Notes under the pieces: model-generated
The model's input: only the letters and a program-made list of their open reading frames with translations
Told to the model about the DNA's origin: nothing
Database searches by the model: none
Part shown: piece after piece, positions 5,332 through 15,086 of the stretch
Numbering within the stretch: the stretch's first letter is position 1
Layout: each line of letters begins with the position of its first letter
Source of the DNA: an uncultured Bdellovibrionales bacterium
Lineage (GTDB): Bacteria; Bdellovibrionota_C; UBA2361; JBGSMV01
Assembly (NCBI GenBank): GCA_964631745.1
Contig: CAZVWV010000022.1
Span: 15,640-34,295 of the forward strand
DNA length: 18,656 bases
Direction of reading: 5' to 3'
Position numbers and translations under genes: made by a program

Positions 5332-5510
5332 CTCAAGCGGGCTTTTGGTTCCGGTCGGCCCACATTCCGCGACGTGAGTGTACCGATCTTTATTCCCCTT
5401 CCCAAATCGATTTGGATTGGGCTAGTACTTGTGGAGCCTTGGTCAAAACGCAGAAACCCATAGACTTTTTGCCAAACAACCCAAGCTTACAAATATGTTG
5501 AGATGGGCGG

Positions 5511-6721: not shown

Positions 6722-7276
6722 TTACTCACGCCCAAAACCGATCTTTCCCTTTCTCCCTCTCTGCATCGGTTCCTTCGGTTGAGCGTTAATTAACTCCCGA
6801 ATGCTATTGAACACCACTTTAAATTGGGCGTCATAACGCCGCTCTAGTTCGTCTAATCGTTTCGCGAACTCTTTGTTACTTGCTAGAATCTGCCGCATCC
6901 GGACAAACGCTCTGATGATCGCTATATTCACATGAATAGCTCTCTCACTATTCAAAACACTGGAAAGCATTGAAATTCCGTGCTCAGTGAACGCGTATGG
7001 CAGGTTTCGTCGGCCAGGCTTACCACTTGAGGTCACAATTTGTGACCGTAAAGCCGTGTATTCTTGGCTAGTTAGCTGAAACATGAAGTCCGCCGGGAAT
7101 CTTTCCACGTTTCGCTTTACAGCCTGTACCAGCGCCTTCGTTCTTACTTGGTAAAGTCTGGCTAGATCCTCGTCCAGCATTACCTTCTCACCTCTAATGA
7201 AGTAAATTGATTGCTCCAGCCGTTCAACAGGTATTACAGAACTGTTCTTTTTATTCATCGTTTCCCAAACTATCAT
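6722..7276 (-). CDS. ORF6N-domain (KilA-N-like / antirepressor-type DNA-binding) protein
   Basis: N-terminal IYFIRGEKVMLDEDLARLYQVRTKALVQAVKRNVERFPADFMFQLT is the ORF6N signature. The ORF is inverted within its cassette and sits next to the family-2 attC. Confidence 0.75.
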   Translation of the reverse strand: MIVWETMNKKNSSVIPVERLEQSIYFIRGEKVMLDEDLARLYQVRTKALVQAVKRNVERFPADFMFQLTSQEYTALRSQIVTSSGKPGRRNLPYAFTEHGISMLSSVLNSERAIHVNIAIIRAFVRMRQILASNKEFAKRLDELERRYDAQFKVVFNSIRELINAQPKEPMQRGRKGKIGFGRE

Positions 7277-7302: not shown

Positions 7303-7381
7303 AGATAACCATTGAATTCACGATATTTCGCGCTTTAGAATCAGTTTGGCGCGAAAATCGTGATTCAACAGAACGTTGGAC
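7303..7381 (+). repeat. attC-like site, family 2 copy a
   Basis: GATAACC ATTGAATTCACGATATTTCGCGC ... GGCGCGAAAATCGTGATTCAACA GAACGTTGGAC. The R' GTTGGAC is a perfect GTTRRRY. Confidence 0.65.
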
Positions 7382-7436
7382 TGAGCCGCGCAGTAGCGCG
7401 GAGGATCCTAAGCGAGAATTTGAATCGTAAGAGTAA

Positions 7437-7464
7437 GACCGGCACCGACCGGTCATTTTTTTTT
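7437..7464 (+). terminator. Rho-independent terminator at the 5' end of a cassette
   Basis: GACCGG-CACCGA-CCGGTC hairpin followed by a T9 run. It lies 60 nt after the cassette boundary within a conserved leader (7382-7465). A weaker copy lies at 14433-14515. Confidence 0.6.
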
Positions 7465-7645
7465 GCGAAAAGCGTGAGGATGTGTGCCGGTGGTTCAAGT
7501 CCCATCGCCGCCCCGACCGCCCGAACCTAGTGCCGAACCTAGTGTAGCTGAAAAGTAGAAAAGAATCTTGGCGAAAGTTCCATCCCTGATGGTGTAAAAG
7601 AGACCTGACTAAAGAAACTCATTTACAACCATCAGGGAGGAATTC

Positions 7646-8233
7646 ATGAACGATAAAAAAAGTACGCCACTTAGAGAGAAAATGAAAGCGGATTTAATGC
7701 TTCGGAATTATTCTAAGCCTTCTGAAGAGTTATATCTGTTTCATGTCAGGCGCTTTGCACAACACTATCACAAATCCCCAGGACATCTTGGACTAGACGA
7801 GATCCGGAGCTACCTGACGTACCTGCGCCAAGAAGCCAACGTATCGCAGTCATCGTATAAGCAAACGGTGGCAGCGCTCAAAGACGGCAACGTCTCTTTC
7901 TCCTACAAAGATTACAGAACTAACGAAAAGAAATTGATGACGCTGCCTGCTGTAGAGTTTATTCGGAGATTTCTGCTGCATGTGCTTCCAAACAAGTTCG
8001 TGAGGGTGCGCTACTACGGGTTCCTGACCAGGGCAAAGAAACTTGCCGCTCTGAGCACTATTAGAGAGGCGTTGGAGACCCATTCTCAAGCCCCGCCACC
8101 AAAACCTGCCACTACGCCCCATAGACACTGCTGCCCGGCCTGCAAGCTCGGGAAATTGGTCCACATTGGCCAAGTCCCACGCTGTTCGATTCCAGGCACT
8201 AGTCCACCAGCGCAACATACAGCCCTTTCTTAG
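7646..8233 (+). pseudogene. Degenerate chimeric ORF: tyrosine-recombinase (IntI/Xer-type) SAM-like N-terminal domain joined to the C-terminal segment of an IS91-family (Y2 HUH) transposase
   Basis: Residues 8-80 (LREKMKADLMLRNYSKPSEELYLFHVRRFAQHYH...VSQSSYKQTVAAL) fit the recombinase N-terminal SAM-like domain. Residues about 100-175 (EFIRRFLLHVLPNKFVRVRYYGFLTRAKK ... CCPACKLGKL) fit the Y2-transposase C-terminus with its terminal Zn motif. No catalytic domain sits between them. Confidence 0.45.
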
Positions 8234-8267
8234 CCAATCGCTCTTAGCTATACTAACTTCAATCGTT

Positions 8268-8394
8268 GGAGGCTGCGCGGCCCAGTCCAACGGGGTGTCG
8301 AGCCGCGATTCTCAGGCGAGAACGCTGCGGCAAGTTGGCACTCCTTGGCTGATAATCGCGGCCCAACACTAAACATTATCCCCTTTAGGCAGCC
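8268..8394 (+). repeat. attC-like site, family 3 copy 1; it has an extended outer palindrome
   Basis: GCGCGGCCCA GTCCAAC ... GAGCCGCGATTCTCAGGCGA ... GGCTGATAATCGCGGCCC AACACTAAACATTATCC. About 80% identical to 14966-15086. The 10 nt outside R'' are the reverse complement of the 10 nt that follow R' at the cassette start (7382-7391). Confidence 0.55.
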
Positions 8395-8663
8395 AGTTTT
8401 CTCTTGAGAACCTTAATCTCATTTTCAATCTGTTCAAGTCTCGAGGCAGCCGTCACTTTATCCGACATGCTTTCACTCAGAGTCCTGTTAATTAGCCGCT
8501 GATAAGGAATTCCACTCTCATCAGCCATAGCTCTTAGCTTTGCAAGAGTTTCGGCATTGATATTGATTGTAATTTTTATGCTCTTCTGGCGAGCCATCGC
8601 AGAACGTATTCGCTTGGTTTCAGCCCTATCGATTTTAAGATTTTTTAGGTTTGGTTTTTTCAT
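8385..8663 (-). CDS. brnA: BrnA antitoxin (CopG/RHH-type)
   Basis: MKKPNLKNLKIDRAETKRIRSAMARQKSIKITININAETLAKLRAMADESGIPYQRLIN. Starts at the internal Met of the track ORF and overlaps the end of brnT by about 29 nt. Confidence 0.7.
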   Translation of the reverse strand: MKKPNLKNLKIDRAETKRIRSAMARQKSIKITININAETLAKLRAMADESGIPYQRLINRTLSESMSDKVTAASRLEQIENEIKVLKRKLAA

Positions 8664-8922
8664 TGTATATTCTCCTAAACTCTCGCCATTCGGCCGACCC
8701 ATAAATTCGTACTTTTCCTTCTCGCCTTGTAAACCGAGTCGTAAGTATCTTCCCCGAACTCGATCTCCCCAACCAATAAAAACGCTCCTCATCCTGAGAA
8801 TGCTTATCATCTCTGATGGCAAATCCATCAGGATCGGAAAAAGACTCCGCGGCTTCGGAAAAACTCACCTTGTGCTTCCTAAGGTTTTCTTTAGCTTTGC
8901 CGGCGTCCCACTCGAAATCCAT
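8635..8922 (-). CDS. brnT: BrnT toxin (DUF497 ribonuclease family)
   Basis: MDFEWDAGKAKENLRKHKVSFSEAAESFSDP...DDKHSQDEERFYWLGRSSSGKILTTRFTRREGKVRIYGSAEW matches the BrnT pattern (FEWD..K...N..KHGVSF.EA, HS..EERF). The toxin lies upstream of the antitoxin, as in BrnTA. Confidence 0.8.
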   Translation of the reverse strand: MDFEWDAGKAKENLRKHKVSFSEAAESFSDPDGFAIRDDKHSQDEERFYWLGRSSSGKILTTRFTRREGKVRIYGSAEWREFRRIYNEKTKPKKS

Positions 8923-10134: not shown

Positions 10135-10147
10135 TGCAGGCTAACAA

Positions 10148-10235
10148 GTGGGCGCACTGGAGGCAAAATCCTGGGGCTTTCTTAGGAATTTTGTGACTGT
10201 TATGATGATTTTGCCCCAGTGGTTCTAAACGTTAA
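10148..10235 (+). repeat. Candidate attC-like site, family 9
   Basis: GGCTAAC ... GCGCACTGGaGGC / GCCCCAGTGGTTC imperfect dyad, with one extra A in the left arm. R' is AAACGTTAACC. Confidence 0.4.
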
Positions 10236-10256
10236 CCCCTTTTAGCAGTAATACCC
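10235..10256 (+). repeat. 22-bp direct copy of the tip of the Tn3-family IRR (ACCCCTTTTAGCAGTAATACCC)
   Basis: Identical to 12822-12843 and in the same orientation. It starts 5 nt after a cassette boundary and 13 nt before the tnpA ATG. Confidence 0.5.
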
Positions 10257-10268
10257 CTCCTTGACCAA

Positions 10269-12743
10269 TTGATGGAACCAAATGACGCGAGTTCGGCGAA
10301 GCTCACACGGTATCAGCTTACGCTCATGAAGAAATTCGCTCACTCCATTGCGCCATCTGCAATAAAGGAAAATGTCGAGCAGCTTGTAGCGCTGCGTGAA
10401 CTTTACCTTGAGATTCGAGCAGTATTAGAAGAGCTTGATCTTACCCGCGAAGGCATTCGTTACTTTGCGACCTACGTTTTAAAATCGCCTACTTGGAGGC
10501 TTTCTGCAAGAGAGGACCATGACCGATACTTGCACATGATAACTTTTGTTGCTCATCAGTACTATCAACTTCAAGATATCCTTGTCGATGTTTTGCTCAG
10601 CTCTGTAACGGCAATTAACAACGGCGCACGTCGTGAGCACAAAGATGGTTGCTACGAACAGCGGTCTCAAAAAAATAGCTCCCTTGCAAATGTGATTGAA
10701 ACAGTTGAGAAACTTCTCTCTGGCTATGCTGAGATTCACGATATCTTGCACAAAAAGGGACTACACTCGGATAAAAAAATAGAGCTTATCAAGGCTCTAC
10801 TTGATGAAAATGAAGCTGCTATCCGTAACGCCAGAAAGCATGTCATTAACCTCAAACAGGCATCTCAGCAGGTGGTTGAGAATGATTTCTACGCAATTCT
10901 GGAATCAAAGTCGGTCAAACTTCAAAATAGAGTCGCAGGGATTGTAAAAACGCTTGAGTTTAGATCTGACTGCTCTGATAAGCTGCTCTACAGCGCCATA
11001 TGTCACTATAGAGAGCACGCTACCCTCACTGAATCTGCACCATACGATTTCTTAAGTCCGGTTGAGCAGAATCTCTTGCACAGAGACGGTGGAAAGTTTC
11101 GAGTTCCGCTCTATAAAGTGCTGCTCTTTGGAAGAATCGCTGAAGCAATTCGGGCCGGGACCCTTAACTTAGACCACTCATACAAGTATCGCACTTTAGA
11201 AGAGTATCTAATCGCGCGGTGCGCTTGGGATGAGGGAAAAGATGTCCTCATAGAGCGCGCAAGCCTCCAAGTTGTTGAGAACTGTCCTAAAGTGCTTACC
11301 GATCTTCAAACCCGCCTAGCGCAATATTATCAGCTTACAAATCAGCGAATTTTAGATGGCGGCAATGAATTTGTTTCGGTCAAAAGTACCGGCGCTTATA
11401 CCGTGCAAACCCCGCCAGTAGCCGAGAAGATGGCTCCTGGCCTGCCTGAGTACTTTCCAGAGACTAAATTTATTTCTCTGCTTGAAATCCTTTCCACAAC
11501 CAATCAAGTAACAAATTTTCTAGCAGAATTTAAACGCTCAAAATTAAAGTATAATCGCGCACGACCAAGCGATCGGTCCTTTTTTGCCGGTTTACTCGGA
11601 TTTGGGTGCGGCATCGGTATAAAAAGAATCGCTCAAATCTCAAACCTCATCGACGAAGATGAGCTTGAAAGAACCGTAAACTGGCATTTTTCTTTAGATA
11701 ATGTTGAAGCTGCCAACGATAGAATTTTAGCCTTCATGGATAAGCTTGATCTCCCCTCGGTTTATCTCCAAGACCCAGAGTGGCGGCACACCTCAAGTGA
11801 CGGCCAAAAGGTAGAGGTGGCCGTGCCTTCGCTTAATGCCAATTACTCGTTTAAATATTTCGGCCAAGGTAAGGGCGTGAGCGTCTATAGCTTCATTGAT
11901 GAGAGACATTTTCTCTTTCACTCAACGGTAATTAGCTCAGCGGAACGGGAGGCCGCATATGTAATCGACGGCTTGATGCACAATGATGTTGTACAGAGCG
12001 ATATTCATTCAACTGATACTCACGGCTATACTGAAGTAATATTTGGCGCGACGCATCTTTTGGGATTCATGTTCGCCCCTCGAATCAAGAGTTTAGGGCG
12101 ACAACACCTCTATACCTTTCCTGGCAATACAAAAAAGCTGTACAAAGAAATGAAATACCCTATCCTGCCAGATGGCGTTATCAACATTCAATTAATCGCA
12201 GATAACTGGGATGAAATTCTGCGATTCGTGGCTACCATCAAACTAAAAGAAACCCCTGCTTCGCAGCTATTTAGACGACTTAACTCATACTCAAAATCGC
12301 ACCCTTTATGGGACGCTCTCAAAGAGTTTGGAAAAATTATAAAATCGATTTTCATCCTTCACTACATCGACGATCTCAATCTTCGCCAGGCAGTTGAGAA
12401 GCAGATGAACAAGATCGAAAGTGCTCAGAAGTTTTCAAACGCCGTGGCGTTCGGATCACAAGAATTTAGGCAGGCAGACCGAGAGGAGCAAAATATTGTC
12501 GCTGCTTGTCGCAGGCTTATTAAGAACGCCATCATCTGTTGGAACTACCTATACCTTTCGCAAAAAATTGTAGATGCGCCGAGCCCAGCGCAGAAAAATG
12601 AAATTATTGATGCCGTTCAAAACGGCTCAGTGGTCGCATGGCGGCACATTAATTTCTACGGGGAGTATGATTTCTCAGATGAAAAGCTCAGGGATTCTGT
12701 TGGAATTACTGCCCCTTCGGTTAGGAGTCTTAGAGTGGCTTGA
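10269..12743 (+). mobile_element. tnpA: Tn3-family transposase TnpA, N-terminally truncated relative to full-length (~1000 aa) TnpA
   Basis: 824 aa. Family motifs: RYLHMITFVAHQYYQLQDILVDVLL; SSDGQKVEV; HSTDTHGYTEVIFGATHLLGFMFAPRIKSLGRQHLYTF (DDE region). The first ~170 aa, the N-terminal DNA-binding region, are absent. No resolvase or res site nearby. Confidence 0.85.
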
Positions 12744-12805
12744 AATTCAAAAATGGGAGGGTCGTTTTTGAGTTAAGTTGCTGATCTGGCATAAGAATTC
12801 GGAAA

Positions 12806-12843
12806 TTCTGTGGCGGTTTTCACCCCTTTTAGCAGTAATACCC
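12806..12843 (-). mobile_element. Tn3-family 38-bp terminal inverted repeat (IRR)
   Basis: Read from the tip it is GGGTATTACTGCTAAAAGGGGTGAAAACCGCCACAGAA. It shares GGG at the tip, GCT at 11-13 and GAAAAC at 23-28 with the Tn3 IR (GGGGTCTGACGCTCAGTGGAACGAAAACTCACGTTAAG). It lies 63 bp past the tnpA stop. Confidence 0.55.
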
Positions 12844-14364: not shown

Positions 14365-14432
14365 GCGCATAACAACGCAATCAATAGACATTTTGCTTCG
14401 CAAAATGCTATTGATTGCGCGATACGTTGGAC
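14365..14432 (+). repeat. Short attC-like site (~68 bp), family 7
   Basis: GCATAAC AACGCAATCAATAGaCATTTTGC ttcg GCAAAATGCTATTGATTGCGCGAT ACGTTGGAC. Perfect R' GTTGGAC. Extra base in the left arm. Confidence 0.7.
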
Positions 14433-14515
14433 TGAGCCGCGCTGGCGCGCGGAGGGGTGTAATTGAAACATTTATGGTTGAATTGGAATGATTCGTAAGA
14501 GACGGTCATTTTTTG
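14433..14515 (+). repeat. Conserved cassette-start leader (second copy) with CCGCGC-N4-GCGCGG hairpin and a degenerate terminator
   Basis: TGAGCCGCGCTGGCGCGCGGAGG...GAATTGGAATGATTCGTAAGAGACGGTCATTTTTTG, against 7382-7465 TGAGCCGCGCAGTAGCGCGGAGG...GAATTTGAATCGTAAGAGTAAGACCGGCACCGACCGGTCATTTTTTTTT. Confidence 0.6.
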
Positions 14516-14965
14516 TATACGAGATTAGGTGAAACGCCACTTCATGGCGCTGAAGGCGTCTTGCCTGACTTTTAATTGCGAATAGCGAGAAGCCTACTAA
14601 TTTCACTTGATATCTTTTGAAGAGCTGGCAGCATTGCTTCCCAAAAAGAGAAGCGGGCCTGTCGCGACTGCTTACTTACGTGCAGTCAGGAATGGAGATT
14701 CCTTTTTTACCGCCAGGGATGGCGGCGCCGCTTTAGACATAAACTGAGAGCGCGAATTGTGCTCAGACTCGGTGGGTAGGCCGAAGGCTTTTTGAAAGAA
14801 AAGCTATATTTCTTGGGGTGGGTTGTGCCTAATTGCAAAACTGAGAGATTTTTTATTACGTTAAATCAAATAGTTATTACTCTCCACATAAAAAACGCTG
14901 ACCAATCCCCATAGGCATAATCAGGCGTTGATTAACTATCTGGTTCCTTCAATAATCAAACCATT

Positions 14966-15086
14966 GTAGGCAGCGCGGCACAGTCCAACCGGGTGTCGAG
15001 CCGCGCTTCTCAGGCGAAGTTGCGGCACTGACTTCTCCCGTTTTGGCTGAGAACCGCGGCCCAACACTAAACATTAGGCAGACAGA
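14966..15086 (+). repeat. attC-like site, family 3 copy 2
   Basis: GCGCGGCACA GTCCAAC CGGGTGTCGAGCCGCGCTTCTCAGGCGA ... GGCTGAGAACCGCGGCCC AACACTAAACATTAGGCAG. Confidence 0.55.

What the first reader, a model, noticed from the sequence alone, without database searches (positions are those of the whole stretch)
7376..8394. Paralogous cassette pair with a conserved 5' leader hairpin, a cassette-start intrinsic terminator, and an R-box palindrome extended by 10 bp
Cassettes 7376-8394 and 14427-15086 both begin TTGGAC TGAGCCGCGC-N4-GCGCGGAGG, then have a conserved GAATTKGAATSRTTCGTAAGAG block, then a terminator (strong in copy 1: GACCGG-CACCGA-CCGGTC plus T9; eroded in copy 2). Both end with the same family-3 attC. 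The 10 nt outside that attC's R'' (GCGCGGCCCA or GCGCGGCACA) are the reverse complement of the 10 nt after R' at the cassette start (TGAGCCGCGC). In the circular or ssDNA form the R-box stem would therefore be 17 bp instead of 7. A terminator as the first element of a cassette would block read-through from upstream promoters and insulate everything downstream. This is an uncommon, possibly regulatory, cassette design.
Basis: seen in the sequence. Interest (0 to 1): 0.65.

Follow-up and report, generated by a model that had tools for sequence, protein, structure and literature searches.

The report
IS91-family relics posing as integron cassettes

Summary
The sequence features are real and not chance. 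The 17-mer GTTGGACTGAGCCGCGC occurs 4 times (twice inverted), against 0 expected.

They are not a regulatory cassette design. ORF 7646-8233 fuses the N-terminus of a tyrosine recombinase to the C-terminus of an IS91-type Y2 transposase. Full-length relatives carry the same leader, an intact IntI-like integrase and an IS91 transposase.

Across 11 elements from several phyla, including the named ISAzo26, the "R box plus 10 bp" is a covarying 17-20 bp terminal inverted repeat. It starts with the integron core GTTRRRY. The left end adds a small hairpin, usually an intrinsic terminator, and an RBS-sequestering stem. The right end adds a 60-120 nt near-perfect hairpin.

That hairpin lacks the two bulged bases that 10 of the other 11 attCs in this array show (the eleventh has one). 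The element's integrase lacks the IntI-specific insertion.

These elements lie exactly at attC G|TT junctions (7 contexts) or within 185-240 nt of an intI gene, where attI is expected (3 contexts).

Copy 1 is an internally deleted relic. Copy 2 keeps only the ends. They are independent insertions, not paralogues.

How the element inserts (own integrase, host IntI or rolling-circle transposase) is inferred, not shown.

The parts
7303..7375 (+). Canonical upstream attC whose terminal G (7375) abuts copy 1. This is the insertion site (target).
   Evidence: The fold shows two single-nt bulges spaced 6 bp apart, as in most other attCs of the array.
7375..7393 (+). Left terminal inverted repeat (IRL) of copy 1, GTTGGACTGAGCCGCGCAG. 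It consists of the integron-type core GTTGGAC plus the extension.
   Evidence: I1, I9; covariation with IRR across 11 elements.
7386..7401 (+). Subterminal leader hairpin CCGCGC-AGTA-GCGCGG. Its 3' arm repeats the inner part of IRR.
   Evidence: A hairpin at the same place is present in 12 of 15 elements, with different sequences.
7437..7464 (+). Intrinsic-terminator-like hairpin GACCGG-CACCGA-CCGGTC followed by A+T9.
   Evidence: A terminator-like site lies at +35 to +69 in 8 of 15 elements, with different stem sequences, against a background of 8.9% per 200-nt window.
7576..7644 (+). Long stem-loop that pairs an anti-SD stretch with the GGGAGG ribosome-binding site of the int remnant.
   Evidence: z = -7.7. 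The equivalent stem is present in 6 of 6 subfamily members (z -3.4 to -7.7).
7646..8233 (+). Dead fusion ORF (195 aa): integrase SAM-like N-terminus joined to the C-terminal end of an IS91-type Y2 transposase. It lacks the integrase catalytic domain, the HUH region and the YxxxY motif.
   Evidence: PF13495 54.7 bits, aa 9-79; PF04986 68.2 bits, profile positions 122-180 of 183; alignment.
8273..8291 (+). Right terminal inverted repeat (IRR) of copy 1, CTGCGCGGCCCAGTCCAAC, ending in R''-like GTCCAAC (8285-8291).
8294..8375 (+). attC-like hairpin (stem 8294-8370) plus the TAAACA tail. It is the right end of the mobile unit and has no bulged bases.
   Evidence: It is part of the mobile unit in multi-copy relatives outside integrons.
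14371..14426 (+). Upstream attC of a different family, whose terminal G abuts copy 2.
14426..14452 (+). IRL plus leader hairpin of copy 2 (CCGCGC-TGGC-GCGCGG).
   Evidence: D7, 73, 96.
14500..14515 (+). Eroded remnant of the terminator: only the 3' half-stem ACGGTC and the T run remain.
14516..14958 (+). Interior of copy 2. It is unrelated to int/tnpA, has no ORF of 50 aa or more and no Rfam match, so copy 2 is MITE-like or has had its cargo replaced.
14971..15073 (+). IRR (14971-14989; R'' at 14983-14989) plus the attC-like hairpin and tail of copy 2.
   Evidence: D2/D5, 10, 75, 84, 96.

Best explanation
Units 7376-8375 and 14427-15073 are two independently inserted, non-autonomous relics of an ISAzo26-type member of the IS91 family.

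Intact elements of this type (about 2.5 kb) encode an IntI-like tyrosine recombinase that lacks the IntI-specific insertion, followed by an IS91 (HUH/Y2) transposase. They are bounded by a 17-20 bp terminal inverted repeat that begins with the integron core GTTRRRY.

The left end carries a small subterminal hairpin, usually an intrinsic terminator, and a stem that sequesters the int ribosome-binding site. Together these keep outside transcription from expressing int-tnpA, which is the usual form of IS self-restraint.

The right end carries IRR followed by a near-perfect 60-120 nt hairpin ending at [A/G]|TTA. It mimics an attC but has no extrahelical bases.

Shown: the identity of the relics, the conservation and covariation of every end feature, and the placement exactly at attC G|TT junctions or within 185-240 nt of an intI gene.

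Inferred: the two ends, joined in a single-stranded (bottom-strand) circle made by the rolling-circle transposase, fold into one long attC-like hairpin. That hairpin is then recombined into attC or attI at G|TT by the element's own integrase or by the host IntI. The element therefore enters and moves in integrons like a cassette.

Copy 1 lost about 1.4 kb of int-tnpA. Copy 2 kept only the ends.
For: 1. Relic genes. ORF 7646-8233 matches PF13495 and the C-terminus of PF04986.

2. Same unit with less or no decay. L001 carries the same unit in another array with a smaller deletion. L002, L009, L091 and L092 have the same leader plus an intact 278-284 aa integrase and an IS91 transposase (NF033538, 395 bits).

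3. Conserved ends. IRL/IRR were found in 11 elements, including annotated ISAzo26 and a 3-copy Rhizobium element. Of the IR cells, 86% are paired, 14 of 20 pairs show compensatory change, 0 of 500 shuffles reach this, and slid controls reach at most 35%.

4. Mobile unit. In the Rhizobium copies the limits of the mobile unit include the 3' hairpin.

5. Insulation. The terminator recurs in 8 of 15 elements with different stems. The RBS-sequestering stem is present in 6 of 6.

6. Integrase. It scores highest or joint-highest, with the XerA model, against the integron-integrase model (187-212 bits, below the 265 cutoff) and lacks the IntI insertion.

7. Hairpin. The 3' hairpins have no bulges, whereas 10 of the other 11 attCs of the array have two and the eleventh has one.

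8. Location. The elements lie at attC G|TT in 7 contexts and 185-240 nt from bona fide intI genes in L010, L011 and L082.

9. Strand bias. The junction hairpin is more stable on the bottom strand in 9 of 9 elements. IS91 uses a bottom-strand ssDNA circle (PMC13181058).

10. Independent insertions. Copy 1 is 91% identical to L001 but only 83-88% identical to copy 2.
Against: No full-length copy of the closest subfamily with both ends was recovered, apart from L092, which is about 70-80% identical at the ends.

No circular junction, empty site or intI was seen for this window; only a doubtful intI relic was found.

Covariation of inverted repeats is also expected if the same protein simply binds both ends in duplex DNA, so base pairing is not proven.

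The IR positions were chosen by an IR search, which is a selection bias.

Within an array, host IntI could shuffle any cassette, so different flanks do not prove self-mobility there.

Some relatives (the Rhizobium element, L015, L017) have no obvious hairpin or integron at the target.

Which enzyme acts, and the exact crossover (G|TT versus IS91-style insertion 5' of RTTA), cannot be decided from sequence.
Confidence: 0.85

Rival explanations
1. These are ordinary integron gene cassettes, mobilised only by the host IntI, whose cargo happened to be an int-tnpA module. On this reading the 3' hairpin is a bona fide attC, and the leader and extension are idiosyncratic cassette sequence rather than IS ends.
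For: The units are bounded exactly like cassettes. They start TT after the G of an attC. R'' GTCCAAC is complementary to the first 6 nt. The hairpin is 92 nt with R''/L''/L'/R' order. The position of relatives next to intI fits attI x attC integration.
Against: The same ends bound int-tnpA elements outside integrons: ISAzo26 on a plasmid, and three Rhizobium plasmid copies whose unit limits include the hairpin. The hairpin lacks the bulged bases present in the other attCs of this array. The base at the R' G position is A in both window copies and in 4 relatives.
Confidence: 0.15
2. Same identity (IS91-family relics), but insertion is purely IS91-style. The Y2 transposase inserts the element 5' of a preferred RTTA tetranucleotide next to a hairpin. 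The integron-like look (GTTRRRY, attC-like oriIS hairpin) is then convergence, and neither recombinase is involved in integration.
For: IS91-family ends are a left terIS with one subterminal palindrome and a right oriIS with one or two palindromes abutting a target tetranucleotide (GTTC, CTTG or GTCC), with no target duplication (PMC13181058). Here the left end has one palindrome next to GTTG, the right hairpin abuts ATTA or GTTA in 8 elements and ATTC in the Rhizobium copies, and no duplication is seen.
Against: A 4-nt target occurs about every 256 nt. Yet 7 of 7 subfamily copies lie exactly at attC junctions and 3 distant relatives lie within 185-240 nt of an intI gene. The elements always carry an IntI-like recombinase, and their IRs contain its expected core site.
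Confidence: 0.25
3. The 5' leader is a cis-regulatory RNA (attenuator or riboswitch) controlling the downstream gene of a cassette.
For: The hairpin-plus-terminator architecture resembles an attenuator.
Against: There is no Rfam match even at E<=1. Copy 2 has no downstream gene. The first hairpin arm covaries with a partner 0.5-2.4 kb away at the other end of the element. No alternative antiterminator fold is apparent.
Confidence: 0.03
4. A chance similarity or a local segmental duplication within the array.
For: Only two copies occur in the window.
Against: None of 200 shuffles gives even one match to the 17-mer. The same ends are found in other samples and phyla. Copy 1 is closer to L001 than to copy 2.
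Confidence: 0.01

Closest known systems
IS91 family, ISAzo26-type subgroup (tyrosine recombinase gene upstream of the Y2/HUH transposase)
   Same: Same gene pair: the transposase scores 395 bits on NF033538, and the integrase lies directly upstream. ISAzo26 itself has the same end architecture: an IRL GTTGGACTAAACCGC plus small hairpin, an IRR ...GGTTCAGTCCAAC, and then an attC-like hairpin ending CTGC|ATTATGC. No target duplication. Functionally distinct ends with subterminal palindromes, as described for IS91/IS801/IS1294.
   Different: The window copies are dead relics (one fusion ORF, one with no gene). This subfamily was found only in metagenomes, and its integrase is at most 44% identical to anything among the GTDB species representatives. 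Every copy of the subfamily seen lies at an attC junction. I found no paper describing integron residence or the attC-like end of this subgroup; that ISfinder lists integrase-bearing IS91 members is from my own memory.
Integron gene cassette with attC
   Same: Bounded at G|TT. R'' is RYYYAAC and complementary to the unit's first bases. The order is R''-L''...L'-R'. The hairpin length lies within the attC range. The orientation matches the array. The bottom strand folds better than the top.
   Different: There are no extrahelical bases. A stands in place of the R' G. The palindrome extends 10-12 bp beyond the R box. The unit encodes its own recombinase and transposase, and relatives move outside integrons.
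attC-targeting mobile elements (IS1111-attC group, group IIC-attC introns) - from my own knowledge
   Same: These are selfish elements that specifically occupy attC sites in cassette arrays.
   Different: They insert inside the attC hairpin using a DEDD transposase or a retrohoming ribozyme. The present element sits at the G|TT crossover, brings its own attC-like hairpin, and encodes an IntI-like recombinase plus an HUH transposase.
Integron integrase IntI / Xer recombinases
   Same: The element's integrase scores highest or joint-highest (with XerA) against the IntI model TIGR02249 (187-212 bits) and about 32-36% identical to true IntIs. It has the same SAM_4 plus catalytic-domain layout.
   Different: It scores below the IntI cutoff (265 bits) and lacks the ~40-aa IntI-specific insertion (the KYP...W.WQ..F segment). 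From my own knowledge, that segment contacts the extrahelical bases of attC.

Membership tests
IS91 family (ISAzo26-type) | Y2/HUH IS91-type transposase | tested here: met
   The window holds only a C-terminal remnant (PF04986 68.2 bits, profile positions 122-180 of 183). Full-length relatives with the same ends score 395 bits on NF033538, against a cutoff of 125.
IS91 family (ISAzo26-type) | Tyrosine recombinase gene immediately upstream of tnpA | tested here: met
   The remnant matches PF13495 at 54.7 bits. Intact int lies 0-10 nt before tnpA in L002, L009, L090-L092, L093 (ISAzo26) and L095.
IS91 family (ISAzo26-type) | Distinct left and right ends with subterminal palindromes; no target-site duplication | tested here: met
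   There is a small hairpin at the left end and a long hairpin at the right end. The flanks are ...AACG| and |TTATCC, or ...TACG| and |TTAGGC, with no direct repeat.
IS91 family (ISAzo26-type) | Specific tetranucleotide adjacent to the right (oriIS) end | tested here: inconclusive
   ATTA or GTTA follows the unit in 8 elements and ATTC in the Rhizobium copies. The same bases are the start of the next cassette's R' box.
IS91 family (ISAzo26-type) | Rolling-circle transposition through an ssDNA circle | not testable with these tools
   Only indirect evidence: the joined ends fold better on the bottom strand in 9 of 9 elements. No circular contig was found.
Integron gene cassette / attC | Unit bounded by G|TTRRRY crossover points inside an attC array, in array orientation | tested here: met
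   The units start at 7376 and 14427, after the G of canonical attCs. The next cassettes start TTATCC at 8376 and TTAGGC at 15074.
Integron gene cassette / attC | R'' RYYYAAC complementary to the unit's own first bases; imperfect L''/L' stem; length 57-141 nt | tested here: met
   GTCCAAC pairs with TTGGAC. The stem pairs 18 of 21 positions. The distance from R'' to R' is 92 nt.
Integron gene cassette / attC | Extrahelical (bulged) bases at conserved spacing in the stem | tested here: not met
   Ten of the other 11 attCs fold with two single-nt bulges 6 bp apart, and the eleventh has one. Both family-3 hairpins have only symmetric mismatches. Hairpins of relatives are also bulge-free.
Integron gene cassette / attC | R' begins with G (GTTRRRY) | tested here: not met
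   The unit's last base is A in both window copies and in L001, L092, ISAzo26 and L017. Note that 3 of the 11 canonical attCs here also have A.
Integron gene cassette / attC | Recombined by IntI | not testable with these tools
   Relatives lie 185-240 nt from intI genes, which is suggestive only.
Integron integrase (for the element's Int) | Scores above the TIGR02249 cutoff and has the IntI-specific insertion | tested here: not met
   It scores 187-212 bits against a cutoff of 265, while true IntIs score 401-479. The insertion is absent in alignment A5.
Rho-independent terminator | GC-rich hairpin followed by a U tract, conserved by covariation | tested here: met
   7437-7454 plus T9. Six subfamily and two distant elements have a hairpin plus T run at the same offset with different stem sequences. 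Termination activity itself is not testable.

The most novel reading that the evidence does not exclude
ISAzo26-type IS91 elements may be self-mobilising integron cassettes. The rolling-circle Y2 transposase would peel off a bottom-strand ssDNA circle. Its joined ends would fold into an extended, bulge-free attC-like hairpin. The element's own IntI-like recombinase (an IntI without the extrahelical-base-reading insertion), or the host IntI, would then recombine that hairpin into attI/attC at G|TT.

Copy 2 (IS ends around unrelated DNA), together with the family's known one-ended transposition, would then point to a route by which foreign DNA acquires an attC-like end. That bears on two open questions: where attC sites and cassettes come from, and where IntI came from.
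Probability: 0.3. Interest if true: 0.85.

Novelty: new variant of a known kind. Interest (0 to 1): 0.6.

Why it matters
For this window, the analysis turns an apparent 'regulatory cassette design' into two dead IS copies. It also corrects the cassette boundaries and shows that one 'attC family' of the array is not a canonical attC. That matters for annotating integrons and for counting cassettes.

More broadly, a named but little-studied subgroup of the IS91 family appears to be built to live in integrons. Its inverted repeats carry the integron core site. Its right end imitates an attC without extrahelical bases. Its recombinase is an IntI look-alike without the insertion that reads those bases.

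If the inferred mechanism holds, it links two single-strand DNA systems: HUH rolling-circle transposition and integron recombination. It would also give a directly testable model for how attC-like ends become attached to new DNA.

Tried and rejected
Rfam, at gathering thresholds on the whole window and at E<=1 on both units: only chance miRNA-like hairpin hits.

tRNA scan, prompted by a tRNA-like GGTTCAAGTCC stretch at 7493: no tRNA.

Exact leader pattern in GTDB genomes: 0 hits. In JGI metagenomes: 5 hits, of which 3 (L005-L007) are chance matches inside GC-rich coding sequence.

The host remains unknown.

P0131's 6.9-kb contig had no retrievable DNA.

RNAalifold on the int 5' UTRs returned no structure because the alignment was poor. 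I replaced it with single-sequence folds.

Copy 2's interior against full elements by blastn and tblastx: no homology.

The ISAzo26 DNA search in plasmids gave only one full copy, so its ends could not be delimited that way. The Rhizobium copies were used instead.

The ~2.54-kb contigs were checked for terminal overlap as a sign of circular forms: none.

The idea that the mobile unit ends at IRR (8291), with the hairpin belonging to a host attC, was rejected. All copies share the sequence through ...CTAAACA, and the Rhizobium unit includes the hairpin.

Six literature searches found nothing on integrase-bearing IS91 elements in integrons. One further search call failed because a term was too short.
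Full report
**What is in the sequence**

The window from about 4.8 kb onward is an integron-type cassette array. Eleven canonical attCs lie on the + strand. Ten of them fold with two single-nucleotide bulges 6 bp apart on the 5' arm, and the eleventh has one. The window holds no intact intI.

The two units of the finding start TTGGAC TGAGCCGCGC-N4-GCGCGGAGG at 7376 and 14427. Each start comes immediately after the terminal G of a different upstream attC.

Copy 1 then has a strong terminator-like site: 7437-7454 followed by A+T9. Copy 2 keeps only half of this site.

Both units end with the same ~95-nt hairpin, 88-94% identical. The shared sequence stops at ...CTAAACA, at 8375 and 15073. The next cassettes begin TTATCC at 8376 and TTAGGC at 15074.

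The 17-mer GTTGGACTGAGCCGCGC occurs four times: twice on the + strand at the starts, and twice on the - strand just before the hairpins, with one mismatch each. None of 200 shuffles produced a match. When the two ends are joined as in a circle, the ssDNA folds into one long hairpin, with z = -4.0 for the top strand and -6.7 for the bottom.

**What the units carry**

ORF 7646-8233 (195 aa) matches the integrase N-terminal SAM-like domain (PF13495, aa 9-79). It continues directly into the last third of the IS91-type Y2 transposase domain (PF04986, profile positions 122-180 of 183). It is an internal-deletion fusion. It lacks the recombinase catalytic domain, the HUH region and the YxxxY motif.

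L001 comes from another sample and holds the same unit in a different array. It is 91% identical overall and 99% identical at the 3' end. Its deletion is smaller (252-aa ORF) and its 19-bp inverted repeat is perfect.

L002, L009, L091 and L092 show the undecayed state. Each has an upstream attC, then G|TTG[G/A]AC and the leader hairpin. L002, L009 and L091 also have the terminator; L092 does not. An intact 278-284 aa tyrosine recombinase follows, then a gene that scores 395 bits on the NCBIfam IS91 transposase model.

The interior of copy 2 (14516-14958) has no homology to these elements, no ORF and no Rfam match. Only the ends survive.

Copy 1 is closer to L001 than to copy 2 (83-88% identity), so the two window copies are separate insertions rather than paralogues.

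**The 'extended R box' is a terminal inverted repeat of a widespread IS group**

A protein-guided scan of GTDB genomes and PLSDB plasmids found int + IS91-tnpA pairs in Gemmatimonadota, GN15, Cloacimonadota, Acidobacteriota, Rhizobium, Sphingomonas and Aromatoleum. The Aromatoleum element is annotated by NCBI as ISAzo26.

In each of these, the region upstream of int begins [G/A]TTG[A/G]AC plus about 10 nt. That stretch is the inverted complement of a sequence ending ...GT[T/C]CAA[C/T] downstream of tnpA.

I aligned 11 elements as IRR-linker-IRL. In that alignment 86% of cells pair, 14 of 20 pairs show changes on both sides, 0 of 500 shuffles reach this level, and slid registers reach at most 35%.

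The IRL is followed by a small hairpin in 12 of 15 elements. A hairpin plus T run lies at +35 to +69 in 8 of 15, with different stem sequences; the background is 8.9% per 200-nt window.

In 6 of 6 subfamily members, a long stem pairs an anti-SD stretch with the int ribosome-binding site (z -3.4 to -7.7).

IRR is followed by a near-perfect 60-120 nt hairpin that ends at ATTA or GTTA. In three copies on different Rhizobium plasmids, the limits of identity run from the IRL to about 80 nt past the IRR. The hairpin is therefore part of the mobile unit even outside integrons.

**Relation to integrons**

The element's integrase scores highest or joint-highest, with the XerA model, against the integron-integrase model, at 187-212 bits, but this is below the cutoff of 265. 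It lacks the ~40-aa IntI-specific insertion that true IntIs from the same scan possess; those score 401-479 bits.

Correspondingly, the element's hairpins have no bulged bases, unlike the canonical attCs of this array. That the IntI insertion reads the extrahelical bases is from my own knowledge of the VchIntIA-attC structure. The linkage between the two absences is an inference.

All seven subfamily copies with a visible upstream flank lie exactly after the G of an attC.

Three distant relatives begin 185-240 nt from a bona fide intI gene, where attI is expected: L010 (Chloroflexi), L011 (Gemmatimonadaceae) and L082 (Elusimicrobia). A fourth, L017, lies about 450 nt from one.

The joined-end hairpin is more stable on the bottom strand in 9 of 9 elements. 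IS91 uses a bottom-strand ssDNA circle as its insertion intermediate (PMC13181058). That integrons recombine the bottom strand of attC is from my own knowledge.

**How it most likely works**

Shown:
- The units are IS relics.
- The leader hairpin, the terminator, the RBS stem, the IRs and the 3' hairpin are conserved parts of that IS.
- The IS occupies integron recombination points.

Inferred:
- The terminator and the RBS stem shield int-tnpA from read-through transcription. This is a common IS strategy, and in an array it would also be polar on downstream cassettes.
- The ends, joined in an ssDNA circle, form an extended attC-like hairpin. The element's Int or the host IntI recombines that hairpin at G|TT.

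The main mechanistic rival is IS91-style insertion 5' of an RTTA tetranucleotide. It fits the end layout described for IS91, IS801 and IS1294. It does not explain the precision for attC and intI-adjacent sites.

One caveat applies throughout. Covariation between IRs is also expected for duplex protein-binding sites, so pairing is supported mainly by the strand asymmetry and is not proven.

**Comparison with what is known, and novelty**

The kind is known: the IS91 family, including integrase-bearing members such as ISAzo26.

I could not find any description of three things: this subgroup's residence at attC/attI, the integron core inside its IRs, or its bulge-free attC-like end paired with an insertion-less IntI-like recombinase. 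Six literature searches and the papers I read turned up nothing. The library lacks most subscription journals and ISfinder/TnPedia, so absence there is weak evidence.

I therefore rate the finding as a new variant of a known kind. The window copies themselves are ordinary dead ISs.

Noticed in passing
window 10232-12843: A Tn3-family transposase ORF (10269-12743; PF01526, 383 bits) starts right at the R' of attC 10139-10232. It is bracketed by direct (not inverted) 25-nt repeats TT[A/C]ACCCCTTTTAGCAGTAATACCC at 10232-10256 and 12819-12843.
   Followed up: no
window ~5332-5409 (- strand): One reading frame gives ...GKGNKDR|YTHVAECGPTGTKSPLEVL. These are two tyrosine-recombinase motifs joined together, with an IntI-like C-terminus. 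It may be a tiny intI relic. tblastn gives only E = 0.29, and there is no intact intI in the window.
   Followed up: partly
window 5603, 13325, ~15979: Three of the 11 canonical attCs of the array have A|TT instead of G|TT at R'. The two IS relics also end in A.
   Followed up: partly
window 7524-7547: Tandem duplication CCGAACCTAGTG x2 in the int 5' UTR of copy 1; L001 has a single copy. It lies inside a motif conserved across the subfamily between the terminator and the RBS stem (CCCGACCGCCCGA...CTAG.GTAGC...AAAGAATCTTG). This could be the element's own promoter or operator.
   Followed up: no
window 7871-7880 vs L001 909-918 and 1085-1094: The extra 171-nt deletion of copy 1 relative to L001 lies between two short similar repeats (GCAGCGCTCA and GTAGCTCTCA). 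This suggests slippage or microhomology deletion.
   Followed up: partly
proteins P0002, P0005, P0007, P0008, P0047, P0057: Several independent ORFs in public data fuse the integrase SAM-like domain to the C-terminal part of a Y2 transposase at different junctions. Internal int-tnpA deletions therefore recur in this IS group. Whether any fusion has a function is unknown.
   Followed up: partly
one search hit table; L098: Many close integrase homologues sit on contigs of about 2.5 kb (2534-2541 nt in six different samples). This is the behaviour expected of a repeated element that breaks assemblies at its ends. L098 shows the same IRL, IRR and hairpin, inserted after a small hairpin.
   Followed up: partly
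L093 2328-2359; L012 621-658; L098 1-27; L082 7078-7114: Outside canonical attCs, the base before the IRL is still usually preceded, within 0-10 nt, by a short hairpin; for ISAzo26 it is a perfect 15-bp palindrome. This hints that the target is 'the foot of a hairpin plus RTT'.
   Followed up: partly
window 8385-8828 (-) and 6722-7276 (-): Neighbouring cassettes encode a BrnA/CopG-like antitoxin-domain protein and an ORF6N/Rha-domain protein on the strand opposite to the array orientation.
   Followed up: no
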